A stretch of DNA of 64,000 nt from an uncultured Pseudomonadota bacterium (GCA_902793695.1 CADBEI010000002.1:10771-74770); one strand, 5' to 3'. Shown: positions 28,112 through 40,089, numbered from the stretch's first letter. Numbers and translations are program-made. Notes: generated by a model not told the origin, from the sequence alone.

Positions 28112-28540
28112 GTTTTTTCTCCTTTTCTATTCTTTACAATTTCATAATAACACACTTTTTCTCATAATTGTACAAGTTTTTTGTGAATTTTTTGTTACAA
28201 TCACTTTTACGGTTCAACGCCCTGATTCCGCGGTTAAGCGGCGTGCGTATTACGGGTATACGCGTTCATAATATTCCTAATTCGTAAATAAATCGTAAAA
28301 AGGCAACAGAGCAAAAAGATATACATAATTAAGTGCATATCGTTACAAAAAACGGCTCATTTTTTATTAACTTTATAAACTTAAGAATCGAATCCGTTTT
28401 TATGCTTTGAAAATGCCGTTATTAACTTTATTTCATCCATTAACTGTATTTTAACGTTATTCGGTGTATCTTCAACCAAAAGAGTAGGATATTTGCCGCC
28501 CGAAAACGGCCGTATCCGCTGATTCTACGGGATTTTAAAT
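28112..28540. promoter_or_regulatory. Divergent control region between the T4SS operon and the pilus cluster
   Basis: 429-bp AT-rich non-coding gap between divergently oriented first genes. On the minus strand an extended -10 TGTTATTAT lies at 28152-28144, ~33 nt from the virB2 ATG, with the upstream motif TAACAAAAAATTCAC at 28197-28183. Confidence 0.55.
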
Positions 28541-30175
28541 ATGCAAAAGCTGAATTTGAAATATTTTATGGGTAGTTTTTTTCTTTCGCTGGTTGCGGTG
28601 TTTATTGCCACGAAAGTTTACATTGTGATGTCTTTAAACGCACAAACACAGGAAGAAAAAACTGCCGTCATCGAAACCAAGAACATTGAGCTGTTTGCCG
28701 CAACCGAAGAAAATGATCCGATATACGAAAAGTATAAGAGATTATCGGCGGCGGAAGCTCCTCTCGGCACCGTCGACAGCGTTGCGACAAATACCGGTTC
28801 CGCCTCTGAAGAAAACAGCGAGAGCGGCACGGTTTTGTATGCGGAAAATGATGCAGATGATTGGATTAAAGGTGACGAAAATTTTGCCGAACAGACAGAT
28901 AATAACAACTTATCCACAGCTTTTTCCACAGAAACGACATCGACTGTTGATTTAGCGGAAACGGTAGCAAATACGCCGAAAAACGACGAATTGCAGATTG
29001 CCGATGCTACGACAGCTCCTAATTTTGCCATTCCGCTCAAACATAATTTTAAAATAGAAACCGGCGTAGTTTCGATTTCCGACGAAGCTGACAGCGGACA
29101 AATTGCTTTAGCTTCCAAAAATGTCAGCATTTATAATTTAGGCACGGAAAATACCGCAGCCGTAACCGAACCGCTCGCTTCCGAAGTTGAAAACGACACT
29201 TTATCCTCACAATCCACAGCTATGGATGAAGAAACTTATACACAAGAGATTGAAGACAACCCGTGGGAAGTTGCCGAAACCGGTAATAAGCACATTAACA
29301 AAAACACTTTCGGGGTAAAGAGTGAACCGTTGCAAAAAGATGTTACGTTGCCGGATGCGCAAGCCAAAGAAGAGGCCAAAGTAGCCTATACTCCGCAGCA
29401 GAATATTTTGATTCCGATACCGGAAGATATTTTAAATGATGAAAATTTAACCCCGCAATTCTCTACTTCAAAGGAAAATCTTGAAATAGAACAGGAGTTG
29501 CGTGATAAACACCAACTGCCGGAACTGCTGCCGGAAGAAAGGATTCAAAACAGAAATGGCAGCTCATCCGGAAATAACGGTAGTATCAGAAACGCGGACG
29601 GAACAATTCAAAGCATTGATGACGAGAAAGATTTTGATGGCGATGATGAGGAAACCGTTGATAAAAACGACGAAGCGGCTCACGGTTATCTTGACCGGAT
29701 AAATTCGTGGTTCAGCGGCAGTATCCGCAACAAAACGGATGGTTCGGATGCAAAATCGAAAAAGGCCGGTTCCGCCGGAAAAGACCAACAAAGTTCTATC
29801 TTTCAGCGCCTTTTAGGCAAGAAAGAAGCTCAGGAAAACATTATGCCGACGGAATTAAAATTGGCATTCCAGCCGAATCGAGCCGAAATTTCGGGACAGA
29901 CATTGGAATGGTTGCACGCTTTTGCCGATAACGCCGTCAACAATGAAAATGTCGTTGTTGAAATCAGGGTTGATCGTTCGGCTTCGTTTGAAATTCAGCA
30001 AAAACGTCTCAAAATGCTGTATAAAATTTTGGAAGACAGCGGCGTTGAGCAACGCAAGGTCAATATTATGTTTACTGACAGAGAGCCAAACTCTTTTATT
30101 ATTAGGAATGTACGATACGCTACGGATGAGGCGCGGATAGAGGCAACAAAACATGCCGACAATCCGTGGTTTTAA
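28541..30175 (+). CDS. 544-aa membrane-anchored acidic protein, unknown (possible degenerate OmpA/MotB-like C-terminus)
   Basis: N-terminal TM (FFLSLVAVFIATKVYIVM) followed by a long D/E/T/S-rich region. The C-terminal ~110 aa (LKLAFQPNRAEISGQTLEWLHAFADNAVNNENVVVEIRVDRS...QQKRLKMLYKILEDSGVEQRKV) are loosely OmpA_C-like. That domain call is weak. Confidence 0.5.
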   Translation: MQKLNLKYFMGSFFLSLVAVFIATKVYIVMSLNAQTQEEKTAVIETKNIELFAATEENDPIYEKYKRLSAAEAPLGTVDSVATNTGSASEENSESGTVLYAENDADDWIKGDENFAEQTDNNNLSTAFSTETTSTVDLAETVANTPKNDELQIADATTAPNFAIPLKHNFKIETGVVSISDEADSGQIALASKNVSIYNLGTENTAAVTEPLASEVENDTLSSQSTAMDEETYTQEIEDNPWEVAETGNKHINKNTFGVKSEPLQKDVTLPDAQAKEEAKVAYTPQQNILIPIPEDILNDENLTPQFSTSKENLEIEQELRDKHQLPELLPEERIQNRNGSSSGNNGSIRNADGTIQSIDDEKDFDGDDEETVDKNDEAAHGYLDRINSWFSGSIRNKTDGSDAKSKKAGSAGKDQQSSIFQRLLGKKEAQENIMPTELKLAFQPNRAEISGQTLEWLHAFADNAVNNENVVVEIRVDRSASFEIQQKRLKMLYKILEDSGVEQRKVNIMFTDREPNSFIIRNVRYATDEARIEATKHADNPWF

Positions 30176-30217
30176 TCGGCAGACGTTAAGTTTTAACCTG
30201 TATTATAGGAAAATACG

Positions 30218-38560: not shown

Positions 38561-39111
38561 TGAACAGAATATATTTGAATTTAAAAAATATTCGCTCGCA
38601 AAGTTTCAACGGACTCATCATTGCCTTGTGTTTGTTGCTTGCCGTTATTGCCTTGAGTTATGTTTTATTTCATAATCCGCATAAAGACTTGCATTCCGCA
38701 ATTTTCAAAACTGCCGATAACATTCACAACTATTACCGCGATCAGCCGAATTATTGGAAATTATCAACCGAAACGGCGACAGCGGCTTCATTGGTAGATA
38801 AAAAACTGCTTGAACAAACAAAATATGATTGGAAAATCGGTCAGGGCGCACAAGGCGACACTTCTATGCCGAATGACAACAGCTTCGATATTGCATTGAA
38901 CAAGCTCAATAAATCGGCCTGTATCAATTTAAGCGAATTATCCGTAAGCAAAAAGCAACAGCTGAGTCTACAAAAAATTACCGTCATCAATGACGCGGGA
39001 AACACCGAGTTTTCGTGGGGCAACGAGGAGCACCCGTTGCCGATAGACCGCTACGCCACCCGTCGCTTATGCACGCCGGACGGCAATACGGTTATTTGGA
39101 CTTTTCAATAA
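38560..39111 (+). CDS. Pilin-like protein, non-canonical
   Basis: 183 aa. A basic leader ends in SFNG, followed by a hydrophobic helix (LIIALCLLLAVIALSYVLF). There are two Cys ~50 aa apart near the C-terminus, and the gene sits directly after the platform gene. It lacks the conserved Glu at +5. Confidence 0.35.
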   Translation: MNRIYLNLKNIRSQSFNGLIIALCLLLAVIALSYVLFHNPHKDLHSAIFKTADNIHNYYRDQPNYWKLSTETATAASLVDKKLLEQTKYDWKIGQGAQGDTSMPNDNSFDIALNKLNKSACINLSELSVSKKQQLSLQKITVINDAGNTEFSWGNEEHPLPIDRYATRRLCTPDGNTVIWTFQ

Positions 39112-39117
39112 AAAGCT

Positions 39118-40089
39118 TTATTTTTTACTTTCCGGCACATCAAACAGCGGACGGCCTTGACTCATCCGCGTCATCTGCATTTCGATGGTAGTGGCCAAGT
39201 TGATTTTTCCGGTTTTGATGATGTTACGCGTTTGATCGCCCTGTGTCGTAATAGGGTTGGCAAATAAGAACTGTACCACCGGACGCTTTTTACCGGTACC
39301 GATTAACTGTTGATGAATAACTCCCAAAATACCGCGCGAAAGCAAGTCAAAAGCCAATTCCTCACTCATTTCACCGGCGGAAGCGTGTTTAACTATGGCA
39401 TCAATAGCATCGGCCACGTTGTTGGCGTGAATGGTTGATAAGACCAAGTGGCCGGAAGTAGCGGCACGCAAACATTCGCTCGCGGTTGCCGGAGTACGAA
39501 TCTCGCCCACCAGAATATAACGCGGACGCGAGCGCAAAGCCGAACGCAAAGATGCACCCCAGTCATCATTAATCGGCTGTGTTTGCTTACACATCCCGAC
39601 CGAGCCGTTCATAGCCCGATATTCACCGTCCAGTGGCATTTCAAACGGATCTTCGATAGTATATGCGAATCCACCATTTCTGATTAAATATTCGCGTAAC
39701 AAACTGGATACGGTTGTGGTTTTACCGGAACCGGTGGCACCGCCAAGCAAAATCAGGCCGGAAGCATTGCCGAGCGTAGCCAAATAATTAATCAGCGCCG
39801 GAGGATAACCGAGTGAGGTTAAATCCGGAACCTGCTTCGGCATTTTACGCATACAAAATAAAACTCCGTACATCGAAACCGTGCGTTCAACACGGAAGAA
39901 AAAGTCTTCATAAGTTATGGAATAGCTTGAGCGACCGGTAAACGAGCGCTCCAATAAGTCGTAAAACGCATCAAAATCATCGGGATGAATTTGTCGCAAC
40001 CCGTTTTCCGTACGTTTGTCCGGCACAAACACCTGTTTATCCGGTGTAATATATATATCGGAATAAAATTCATCATTGATACGGCTCAT
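39118..40089 (-). CDS. PilT/DotB-like hexameric secretion ATPase
   Basis: 323 aa with no PilB-type N-domain. Walker A GATGSGKTT, Asp box YTIEDPFE, Walker B RYILVGEIR, His box GHLVLSTIHAN. Confidence 0.8.
   Translation of the reverse strand: MSRINDEFYSDIYITPDKQVFVPDKRTENGLRQIHPDDFDAFYDLLERSFTGRSSYSITYEDFFFRVERTVSMYGVLFCMRKMPKQVPDLTSLGYPPALINYLATLGNASGLILLGGATGSGKTTTVSSLLREYLIRNGGFAYTIEDPFEMPLDGEYRAMNGSVGMCKQTQPINDDWGASLRSALRSRPRYILVGEIRTPATASECLRAATSGHLVLSTIHANNVADAIDAIVKHASAGEMSEELAFDLLSRGILGVIHQQLIGTGKKRPVVQFLFANPITTQGDQTRNIIKTGKINLATTIEMQMTRMSQGRPLFDVPESKK

What the first reader, a model, noticed from the sequence alone, without database searches (positions are those of the whole stretch)
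28112..40089. Type IVb-pilus/T2SS-like cluster placed head-to-head with the T4SS operon
Seen: diverging from the T4SS promoter region are an acidic membrane protein, a TcpQ/PilL-like lipoprotein, a lipoprotein secretin and two assembly proteins. A GspE/PilB ATPase, a GspF/PilC platform and a pilin-like protein follow, with a convergent PilT/DotB-like ATPase. Established: the order lipoprotein-secretin-O-P-ATPase-platform-pilin mirrors the IncI1 R64 thin-pilus pilL-pilS block. PilL-type clusters also accompany some ICE transfer systems, where the pilus stabilises mating. Here it is paired with a VirB-type (IVA) system, and no relaxase, T4CP or integrase is visible. Inference: the two machines may be co-regulated from one control region and act together, with pilus-mediated attachment followed by T4SS delivery. 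Alternatively both are remnants of a domesticated mobile element.
Basis: partly seen in the sequence, partly recalled or inferred. Interest (0 to 1): 0.7.

Follow-up and report, generated by a model that had tools for sequence, protein, structure and literature searches.

The report
Chromosomal type IVb pilus beside T4SS
An uncultured group of gut and rumen Alphaproteobacteria keeps a complete retractile type IVb pilus machine back-to-back with an unusual VirB-type secretion system on its chromosome; on plasmids this pairing serves conjugation, but here it looks like a permanent attach-and-deliver apparatus of the cell.

Summary
Window 28541-40089 encodes a type IVb pilus (T4bP) machine of the R64-thin-pilus/BFP class. 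In order it has a MotB/OmpA-like anchor, a TcpQ/PilL protein, a BfpB/PilN secretin, PilO2, a PilP-like protein, an assembly ATPase, a platform, a bundlin-fold protein and a convergent PilT-like ATPase. It diverges from a VirB2x3-VirB3-VirB4...VirB11 operon.

The pairing is not chance. It occurs in 46 of 52 species-level relatives with enough upstream sequence, down to 34% PilO identity, while the flanking genes change. VirB4 and pilus-protein distances co-vary (r 0.87-0.94). There is no relaxase, coupling protein, integrase, tRNA or GC anomaly.

- The in-cluster "pilin" lacks Glu5 in every orthologue. Canonical bundlin-type prepilins (G|RSMIEMLGVLAIIG) form a large dispersed multigene family encoded elsewhere.
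- No prepilin peptidase is linked to the cluster.
- Each operon has its own conserved cis-element: a perfect CtrA box for the pilus operon and a 17-mer for virB2. A single shared control region is therefore not shown.

Verdict: a new variant of a known kind, of moderate interest. Functional coupling of pilus and T4SS is inferred, not demonstrated.

The parts
114..28111 (-). Partner VirB-type T4SS operon. VirB11 114-1016; giant VirB10 1027-5229; 1411-aa beta-flower/RHS protein 5232-9467; VirB9+SPOR 9471-11072; VirB8 x2 11088-11840 and 12192-12944; 1794-aa protein 12966-18350; five unassigned signal-anchored proteins 18351-23643; VirB4 23729-26158; VirB3-like 26155-26445; orf149 26442-26891; three TrbC/VirB2 genes 26907-28111.
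   Evidence: Pfam and NCBIfam hits. All NCBIfam scores are below the equivalog cutoffs. No polytopic VirB6-like protein was seen.
28112..28540 (.). Divergent 429-bp intergenic region with conserved blocks.
   Evidence: Alignment of 21 species. No Rfam family matched.
28183..28199 (-). Conserved 17-mer (TGTAACAAAAAATTCAC on the minus strand here) linked to the virB2 promoter side. It is inverted in this subclade relative to most relatives.
   Evidence: It lies 112-145 bp from virB2 in almost all paired loci from 40 to 68% PilO identity. It is absent where the T4SS is absent. About 46 of 55 matches in 1.53 Mb lie in this region.
28440..28455 (+). Perfect CtrA-type box TTAA-N7-TTAAC, 86-101 nt upstream of the first pilus-operon gene.
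   Evidence: There are only 2 matches in 64 kb. In 34 of 60 loci there is an exact box within 400 bp upstream of the ATG (30 paired, 4 with no T4SS seen), nearly all in the >=63% identity group and most about -100 from the assigned ATG. TTAAC-N6-TTTAA is followed by the same GTTGTATC block in the 47% group. The consensus is taken from PMC11264516.
28541..30175 (+). Inner-membrane-anchored acidic protein with a long disordered linker and a C-terminal OmpA/MotB/Pal-like domain (residues about 436-536). Probable peptidoglycan anchor of the machine.
   Evidence: TM helix, pI 4.47; AF2 plus Foldseek: MotB, Pal, OprF, prob 1.0. The C-terminus is conserved in all relatives.
30218..30952 (+). TcpQ/PilL-family protein (probable lipoprotein), partner of the secretin.
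   Evidence: PF10671 62 bits. tblastn with the IncI PilL C-terminus gives E 1.6e-5.
30939..32546 (+). PilN/BfpB-type type IVb secretin (probable lipoprotein).
   Evidence: TIGR02520 280.9 bits, PF00263. BfpB 9u5s E 2.9e-55 over residues 53-527. Nearest plasmid PilN is 29% identical.
32568..33833 (+). PilO2 (type IVb pilus accessory protein).
   Evidence: PF06864 71 bits over the full length. Homologues are named PilO2. Nearest plasmid PilO2 is 24% identical.
33823..35658 (+). PilP-like protein enlarged by an acidic linker and a long coiled coil. It has a C-terminal beta domain and a conserved PSLGxGMFVK tail.
   Evidence: hhalign against IncI PilP, E 2.4e-4, 34% identity over 41 columns. Conserved in relatives. 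The PDB profile search was uninformative.
35671..37425 (+). Assembly (extension) ATPase, GspE/PilB/PilQ(R64) family.
   Evidence: PF00437 218.8 bits. Walker A GPTGSGKS and two CxxC motifs.
37439..38560 (+). Inner-membrane platform, GspF/PilC/PilR(R64) family.
   Evidence: PF00482 86.5 bits in two repeats. Four or more TM segments.
38560..39111 (+). Bundlin-fold type IVb pilin paralogue without Glu5 and without a conserved class III signal. It has two invariant Cys residues (C121, C171).
39118..40089 (-). PilT/BfpF-like retraction ATPase, convergent with the pilus operon.
   Evidence: TIGR01420 124.7 bits. PDB PilT 2.2e-22. Found next to the cluster in 43 of 62 relatives.

Best explanation
This is a chromosomal, vertically inherited type IVb pilus machine of the R64-thin-pilus/BFP class. 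It belongs to an uncultured clade of gut and rumen Alphaproteobacteria.

Shown:
- The machine has a BfpB/PilN secretin with a TcpQ/PilL partner in the outer membrane.
- PilO2 and an enlarged PilP-like protein are predicted to span the periplasm.
- The motor is a GspF-type platform with a GspE-type extension ATPase, opposed by a PilT-like retraction ATPase.
- The first gene encodes an inner-membrane protein with a MotB/OmpA-like domain.
- The only pilin-fold gene in the cluster lacks Glu5.
- Canonical bundlin-type prepilins exist as many dispersed paralogues in relatives.
- The cluster stays divergently linked to a VirB-type T4SS across deep divergence.

Inferred:
- The MotB/OmpA-like protein anchors the machine to peptidoglycan.
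- The filament is built from the dispersed prepilins after cleavage by an unlinked prepilin peptidase. The Glu5-less paralogue acts as a non-polymerising priming, tip or membrane-retained subunit.
- Expression follows the alphaproteobacterial CtrA programme.
- The retractile pilus captures a target surface and pulls it within reach of the neighbouring T4SS. This parallels what accessory type IVb pili do for IncI, IncI2 and PAPI-1 conjugation, but here it serves a resident, non-mobile secretion system.
For: - Typing.
- Same gene order as plasmid T4bP clusters, at only 24-29% identity.
- Conserved pairing: 46 of 52 species representatives, down to 34% PilO identity, plus a 38% lineage.
- The flanks change while the pair persists. 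The right flank is MsbA, M29+MsbA or thioredoxin+AddA. Beyond virB11 the flanking genes differ between two relatives.
- Co-divergence of VirB4 with PilQ, PilR and PilO: r 0.87-0.94, Mantel 0 of 999.
- Host-like GC and GC3, no tRNA, no integrase, relaxase or T4CP.
- Canonical prepilins sit adjacent to the cluster in deep-branching relatives and are dispersed elsewhere: at least 7968 hits, with at least 8 paralogues in each of two MAGs.
- A conserved CtrA consensus lies before the pilus operon.
- The mating-pair-stabilisation precedent for type IVb pili is in PMC10654706 and PMC5297154.
Against: - No expression or functional data exist. Coupling of pilus and T4SS rests on conserved linkage only.
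- Six of 52 species have housekeeping genes where the T4SS should be, so adjacency is dispensable.
- The two operons carry different conserved cis-elements, and the pilus element persists without the T4SS.
- The window's own genome was not shown to carry canonical prepilins or a prepilin peptidase. None is in the window or in 2.7 Mb of related loci for the peptidase.
- The PilT-like gene is not adjacent in 19 of 62 relatives.
- The T4SS lacks a recognisable VirB6 and VirD4, so its substrate and even its activity are unknown.
Confidence: 0.55

Rival explanations
1. Linkage by descent only. The type IVb pilus works on its own (adhesion, auto-aggregation, twitching or DNA uptake). It sits next to the T4SS because the ancestor happened to have them adjacent and little rearrangement has occurred since.
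For: Six of 52 species have the pilus cluster without the T4SS upstream. The pilus promoter element (CtrA box) is kept in four loci where no T4SS is seen upstream, and the T4SS-side 17-mer is separate. BFP and TCP, the closest studied chromosomal or virulence T4bPs, act without a T4SS (established knowledge).
Against: The pair survives from 97% to 34% PilO identity while both outer flanks are reshuffled. Conserved divergent gene pairs at such distances usually indicate functional association (established comparative-genomics principle). In every known plasmid or ICE relative of this cluster type, the pilus serves a T4SS.
Confidence: 0.3
2. It is, or recently was, a conjugative element. The T4bP is a mating-pair stabiliser for DNA transfer by the VirB system, with the relaxase, coupling protein and oriT encoded elsewhere in the genome.
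For: All characterised PilL-N-O-P-Q-R-S clusters accompany conjugation systems. The nearest database relatives outside the clade are on plasmids.
Against: No relaxase, T4CP, integrase, tRNA or repeats lie in 64 kb or in 10 kb past virB11. The GC3 matches the host. The chromosomal neighbourhood is the same within subclades, and divergence is congruent over 38 species. There is no PilV/shufflon, and identity to plasmid proteins is only 24-29%.
Confidence: 0.1
3. It is a T2SS-like secretion device. The Glu5-less pilin-fold protein forms a short membrane-retained pseudopilus or piston that pushes substrates through the secretin, and no long pilus is made.
For: The only in-cluster pilin lacks Glu5 and a conserved cleavage site. 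No prepilin peptidase is linked.
Against: There is no GspC, L or M and no set of five pseudopilins, and GspD and GspE scores are far below their cutoffs. T4bP-specific parts are present (PilO2, TcpQ, BfpB-like secretin) together with a PilT-like retraction ATPase. Canonical bundlin-type prepilins abut the cluster in deep-branching relatives.
Confidence: 0.05

Closest known systems
IncI1 R64 / IncI2 TP114 thin pilus (pilL-pilV) accompanying an I-type conjugative T4SS
   Same: The core order is the same: PilL(TcpQ)-PilN secretin-PilO2-PilP-ATPase-platform-pilin. It is encoded beside a T4SS, and its accepted role is bringing partner cells together for T4SS transfer in liquid or in the gut (PMC10654706).
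   Different: Here the cluster is chromosomal and not on a mobile element. Protein identity is 24-29%. The partner is a VirB-type system, not an I-type one. There is no PilM, lytic transglycosylase, prepilin peptidase or PilV/shufflon. A PilT-like retraction ATPase and a MotB/OmpA-like first gene are added. The in-cluster pilin lacks Glu5, whereas IncI PilS has G|WGILE.
Bundle-forming pilus (BFP) of enteropathogenic E. coli
   Same: The secretin's only solved relative is BfpB (E 2.9e-55). The pilins carry the Pfam Bundlin domain, and the in-cluster paralogue's profile hits bundlin 1ZWT. A PilT-type retraction ATPase is present, as BfpF is in BFP (BfpF from established knowledge).
   Different: BFP has one major pilin plus three minor pilins and its own prepilin peptidase in one operon, and it is not linked to a T4SS (established knowledge). 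Here the pilins are a dispersed multigene family and the machine is linked to a T4SS.
PAPI-1 / ICEclc-family islands (pilL2-pilV2 with a GI-type T4SS)
   Same: A type IVb pilus is encoded next to a T4SS in a chromosomal location. The pilus recognises recipient surfaces to start transfer (PMC5297154).
   Different: Those are excisable ICEs with an integrase, a relaxase and a T4CP. None is seen here, and the block is fixed across a whole clade.
Alphaproteobacterial plasmid T4bP clusters (Bosea pBSY19_1, Thalassospira xiamenensis plasmid)
   Same: They share the order, and the Bosea cluster also has a second PilT-like ATPase. They are the nearest annotated PilO2 and PilN relatives.
   Different: They are plasmid-borne, with a replication initiator, an integrase, DotD/TraH- and TraJ-type T4BSS genes or PilV, and a linked prepilin peptidase.

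Membership tests
Type IVb pilus, PilL-N-O-P-Q-R-S / BFP class | PilN/BfpB-type (lipoprotein) secretin | tested here: met
   TIGR02520 scores 280.9 bits, 7 bits under the 287.65 cutoff. BfpB E 2.9e-55 over nearly the full length. The lipobox is only approximate.
Type IVb pilus, PilL-N-O-P-Q-R-S / BFP class | TcpQ/PilL-domain secretin partner | tested here: met
   PF10671 62 bits against a cutoff of 27. IncI PilL C-terminus tblastn E 1.6e-5.
Type IVb pilus, PilL-N-O-P-Q-R-S / BFP class | PilO2 (PF06864) accessory protein | tested here: met
   71.2 bits against 26.7, profile positions 2-418 of 419.
Type IVb pilus, PilL-N-O-P-Q-R-S / BFP class | PilP-type periplasmic protein | tested here: inconclusive
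   hhalign against IncI PilP gives E 2.4e-4 but probability 44% over 41 columns. There is no Pfam hit.
Type IVb pilus, PilL-N-O-P-Q-R-S / BFP class | GspE-family extension ATPase and GspF-family platform | tested here: met
   PF00437 218.8 bits and PF00482 86.5 bits.
Type IVb pilus, PilL-N-O-P-Q-R-S / BFP class | Type IVb prepilin with a class III signal (Gly-1, Glu5) encoded in the cluster | tested here: not met
   The in-cluster protein has the pilin fold but no Glu5 in any of 71 orthologues. No canonical prepilin is in the window. Canonical ones sit adjacent in some relatives and are dispersed in others.
Type IVb pilus, PilL-N-O-P-Q-R-S / BFP class | Prepilin peptidase (A24) | tested here: not met
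   No A24 hit among the window ORFs. tblastn with two A24 peptidases found nothing in 2.7 Mb of related loci. The rest of the genome could not be searched.
Type II secretion system | GspD with N0-N3 domains, GspC/L/M, five pseudopilins G-K | tested here: not met
   GspD model 48.5 bits against 351, GspE 218 against 630, GspF 58.7 against 424. No GspC, L or M and no pseudopilin families were detected.
Tad/Flp pilus | TadA/CpaF ATPase, TadB/C, RcpA/CpaC, Flp pilin | tested here: not met
   The TadA-family model scores 37.9 and 43.4 bits against a cutoff of 373. There is only a non-significant CpaD hit, E 0.087.
Conjugative element (plasmid/ICE) carrying an accessory T4bP | Relaxase, type IV coupling protein, integrase or replication gene, PilV adhesin with shufflon | tested here: not met
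   None is present among the window ORFs or in 10 kb beyond virB11 in relatives. There is no tRNA, no PilV, and the GC3 matches the host.
VirB/VirD4 type IVA secretion system (the neighbour) | VirB2, B3, B4, B8, B9, B10, B11 | tested here: met
   Pfam TrbC x3, VirB3 (weak, E 0.026), CagE_TrbE_VirB, VirB8 x2, CagX, TrbI and T2SSE/VirB11. All are below the NCBIfam equivalog cutoffs.
VirB/VirD4 type IVA secretion system (the neighbour) | Polytopic VirB6 and VirD4 coupling protein | tested here: not met
   No TrbL/VirB6 hit, and no polytopic protein among the unassigned ORFs. No T4CP lies in the window or downstream of virB11. A location elsewhere in the genome was not testable.

The most novel reading that the evidence does not exclude
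The 40-kb T4SS plus T4bP block is a single, clade-defining contact organ of an uncultured, widespread gut and rumen alphaproteobacterial lineage. A CtrA-timed retractile pilus reels in a specific partner surface (another microbe, a protist or host epithelium). Its receptor specificity is diversified by a genome-wide family of interchangeable bundlin-type pilins, which would play the role the shufflon plays for PilV. A Cag-like VirB machine with giant beta-flower surface proteins then delivers cargo. This would point to an epibiotic, parasitic or predatory lifestyle for these bacteria. The Glu5-less pilin would be a new kind of non-polymerising pilus-priming subunit.
Probability: 0.25. Interest if true: 0.8.

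Novelty: new variant of a known kind. Interest (0 to 1): 0.55.

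Why it matters
Type IVb pili next to T4SSs are known as conjugation helpers on plasmids and ICEs. Here the same architecture is fixed in the chromosome of a whole uncultured lineage that is common in human, ruminant, horse and rabbit guts. 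It is attached to a very atypical VirB-type system and shows no mobility genes. This gives a concrete, testable hypothesis for how these uncharacterised bacteria contact other cells.

The locus also offers a natural case of a pilus machine whose subunits are a large dispersed multigene family. A third point is a conserved pilin paralogue that has lost the Glu5 considered essential for assembly. The conserved CtrA box and the virB2-side 17-mer are ready-made handles for regulation studies.

Tried and rejected
- Looking up VirB11 by exact sequence with two start codons found nothing.
- Rfam scans of the window and of the intergenic region found nothing, so there is no riboswitch or sRNA explanation.
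- The sigma-70 scan of the intergenic region was not above background: 5 sites against 2.8 +/- 1.9 expected. No promoter was assigned.
- Profile searches against PDB sequences for the PilP-like domain gave only spurious Elongin-C hits. For the first gene's C-terminus they gave only non-significant OmpA hits. The latter was resolved by AF2 plus Foldseek.
- A second copy of the 17-mer at 23704 is not conserved in relatives and was rejected as chance.
- CtrA boxes upstream of dispersed pilin genes are enriched (6 of 24 against 0.3 expected) but far from universal. This is treated as weak support only.
- Literature searches for this clade's T4SS or pili (RF32, CAG-239) found nothing relevant.
- The idea that the unassigned 400-1794-aa T4SS proteins are Rickettsiales-style VirB6 paralogues was dropped, because none is polytopic.
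- T2SS, Tad and active-ICE readings were rejected on the membership tests.

Full report
**1. What is in the window**

The plus strand from 28541 to 39111 carries eight tightly packed genes, followed by a convergent gene at 39118-40089. Independent gene calls on public assemblies of the same contig give the same map.

Domain and structure searches identify the genes as follows.
- 28541-30175: a 544-aa acidic protein (pI 4.47) with one N-terminal transmembrane helix. It has no Pfam hit. AlphaFold2 with 26 homologues models residues about 436-536 as a beta-alpha-beta-alpha-beta-beta domain (pLDDT about 80). Foldseek places that domain with MotB, Pal, OprF and OmpA peptidoglycan-binding domains (prob 1.0, E 3e-5).
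- 30218-30952: a TcpQ-domain protein (62 bits) that aligns to the C-terminus of IncI PilL.
- 30939-32546: a secretin that nearly reaches the PilN equivalog cutoff (280.9 against 287.65 bits). Its only solved relative by sequence is the BFP secretin BfpB (E 2.9e-55).
- 32568-33833: PilO2.
- 33823-35658: a 611-aa protein with a signal peptide, an acidic linker and a coiled coil. Its C-terminal beta domain matches IncI PilP (hhalign E 2.4e-4, probability only 44%).
- 35671-37425: a GspE/PilB-family ATPase with a Walker A motif and two CxxC motifs.
- 37439-38560: a GspF-family platform.
- 38560-39111: a 183-aa pilin-fold protein, discussed in section 3.
- 39118-40089, minus strand: a PilT-family ATPase. 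PDB PilT scores 2.2e-22 and DotB 4.2e-20.

T2SS and Tad models score far below their cutoffs. The cluster is therefore a type IVb pilus (T4bP) machine.

The minus strand from 28111 down to 114 carries the neighbouring operon. It encodes three TrbC/VirB2 genes, a VirB3-like gene, VirB4, five unassigned signal-anchored proteins, a 1794-aa protein and two VirB8 genes. These are followed by VirB9 with a SPOR domain, a 1411-aa beta-flower/RHS protein, a 1400-aa VirB10 and VirB11.

To the right of the pilus cluster lie MsbA, LdcA, QueH, UvrA and TyrS, which are ordinary chromosomal genes.

**2. Is the pairing more than chance?**

PilO homologues are abundant in uncultured Alphaproteobacteria from guts. 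A scan of one genome per species returned 72 loci, all from rumen, human, horse, rabbit and similar metagenome-assembled genomes. A few carry titles of unrelated taxa, which are probably mislabelled bins.

Among the 52 loci with at least 5 kb upstream of the first pilus gene, 46 have VirB2, VirB3 and VirB4 in the same divergent arrangement. This holds down to 34% PilO identity. A further lineage at 38% identity shows it too.

The six exceptions have housekeeping genes upstream instead: PBP1, PfkB, a radical-SAM enzyme, enolase, a methyltransferase and a phosphatase.

The outer flanks differ between subclades. The right flank is MsbA, M29 peptidase plus MsbA, or thioredoxin plus AddA. Beyond virB11 the genes also vary. 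The pair therefore outlasts its surroundings.

Pairwise distances of VirB4 and of PilQ, PilR and PilO across 38 species correlate at r 0.87-0.94 (Mantel 0 of 999). GC and GC3 of both operons match the housekeeping genes.

No tRNA, integrase, relaxase or coupling protein occurs in the window or within 10 kb past virB11 in relatives. The block is thus a stable chromosomal feature and not a recent island.

**3. The pilin problem**

The 183-aa protein is a genuine type IVb pilin fold.
- A 20-sequence profile hits bundlin (1ZWT, E 1.3e-7), with the two invariant cysteines aligned to the D-region disulfide.
- The AF2 model (pLDDT 78.7) has the long N-terminal helix, and its 13 best PDB matches are all type IVb pilins. 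One caveat applies: the alignment used canonical paralogues.

Its N-terminus, however, has no Glu5 in any of 71 orthologues, and Gly-1 is not conserved. IncI PilS, by contrast, reads G|WGILE.

Scanning the relatives revealed canonical prepilins with a nearly invariant G|RSM(I/V)EMLGVLAIIGVLSVGGIAGYSKAM.
- They sit immediately after the platform or pilin-like gene in the deepest-branching lineages (L070, L073, L075, L169, L170).
- They lie next to the cluster in several other species.
- They even follow virB11 directly in L101.

A database search with one of them saturated at 7968 or more hits carrying the Pfam Bundlin and PilS domains. At least eight paralogues each came from two single MAGs. 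Context look-ups show them scattered singly among housekeeping genes.

The window itself has none. No prepilin peptidase, PilV, PilM or lytic transglycosylase is linked in any of the 2.7 Mb of loci held.

The simplest reading has three parts, all inferred:
- The machine polymerises dispersed, interchangeable bundlin-type pilins.
- The peptidase is encoded elsewhere.
- The conserved Glu5-less paralogue has a non-polymerising role such as priming, tip or membrane anchor.

**4. Regulation**

The 429-bp divergent region aligns across 21 species with discrete conserved blocks.

One block is a perfect CtrA consensus, TTAA-N7-TTAAC, at 28440-28455. There are only two such matches in 64 kb, and the consensus is taken from PMC11264516.
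- Across 60 loci, 34 have an exact box within 400 bp upstream of the ATG. Nearly all of these fall in the >=63% identity group, and most sit about 100 nt from the assigned ATG.
- It is retained as TTAAC-N6-TTTAA plus the same downstream GTTGTATC block in the 47% group.
- It stays with the pilus operon in four loci where no T4SS is seen upstream (L022, L027, L037, L038). Two of these, L027 and L037, are among the six exceptions with at least 5 kb upstream; the same block is visible in L038.

A different 17-mer, TGTAACAAAAAATTCA(C/T), lies 112-145 bp from virB2 in almost all paired loci from 40 to 68% identity.
- It is missing where the T4SS is missing.
- It is inverted in the window's own subclade (28183-28199).
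- It is essentially confined to this region.

Each operon therefore has its own conserved element. CtrA control is an inference from the motif.

**5. Comparison with known systems**

The nearest annotated relatives are plasmid PilO2 and PilN proteins at 24% and 29% identity.
- Plasmids of Bosea and Thalassospira and an IncI plasmid show the same core order.
- On those plasmids the order comes with replication or integration genes, I-type T4SS parts, a prepilin peptidase and PilV.
- In those systems the type IVb pilus stabilises mating pairs and selects recipients through PilV variants (PMC10654706; PMC5297154).

The secretin, the pilins and the retraction ATPase are closest to the EPEC bundle-forming pilus.

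An exhaustive search finds only 666 PilO clusters at 50% identity. The intermediates at 29-44% are again uncultured Alphaproteobacteria.

The locus is therefore a distant, chromosomal member of a known machine family, in a new association and with three unusual traits:
- a MotB/OmpA-like anchor as the first gene;
- a degenerate in-cluster pilin;
- a dispersed pilin multigene family.

**6. Verdict**

- The typing and the conserved pairing are supported.
- Functional coupling (attach, retract, then deliver through the T4SS) is the best-supported model by analogy and by conserved linkage, but it is not shown.
- The six unpaired species and the separate cis-elements keep an independent-function rival alive.
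- Novelty: a new variant of a known kind. Interest is moderate (0.55).

Noticed in passing
window 1027-18350 (minus strand): The T4SS operon has a Cag-like look. It has a 1400-aa VirB10 with beta-flower repeats ahead of the TrbI domain, a separate 1411-aa beta-flower/RHS-repeat protein, a 1794-aa protein without any Pfam hit, and a VirB9 with a C-terminal SPOR domain. It also has two VirB8 and three VirB2 genes. No polytopic VirB6-like protein was recognised among the unassigned ORFs.
   Followed up: partly
window 28183-28199; L025-L080 about 112-145 bp from virB2: The conserved 17-mer TGTAACAAAAAATTCAC on the virB2 side of the intergenic region is in the opposite orientation, and closer to virB2 (72 bp), in the window's own subclade (L010-L014) than in all other relatives. 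Its function is unknown.
   Followed up: partly
L165, L167, L101 (4933, 5730), L093 (17999), L169, L170: Relatives carry a very large family of bundlin/PilS-type prepilin genes with an almost invariant N-terminus and variable C-terminal domains. They are scattered singly among housekeeping genes, and some lie directly after virB11. TTAA-N7-TTAA boxes occur upstream of 6 of 24 of them, against 0.3 expected.
   Followed up: partly
L032, L042, L044, L072, L074: GTDB or NCBI records titled [Ruminococcus] gnavus, Bacteroidaceae, Eubacteriales and Lachnospiraceae carry this alphaproteobacterial T4SS/T4bP locus at 67-68% (47% for L072) PilO identity. These are probably mislabelled or contaminated bins.
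   Followed up: no
window 62001-64000: GC drops to 31% against 40-48% elsewhere, and there is no ORF longer than 111 aa after the L17 gene. The content was not identified.
   Followed up: no
window 33823-35658 and relatives: The PilP-like protein is about four times the size of IncI PilP (611 against 150 aa) because of an acidic linker and a long coiled coil. It ends in a conserved PS(L/F)GxGMFVK motif of unknown role.
   Followed up: partly
window 49797-54000: An ABC ATPase is followed by a 1157-aa fusion of an ABC-2 permease, ABC_transp_aux (GldG-like) and DUF4340. This resembles gliding-associated ABC transporters and was not examined further.
   Followed up: no
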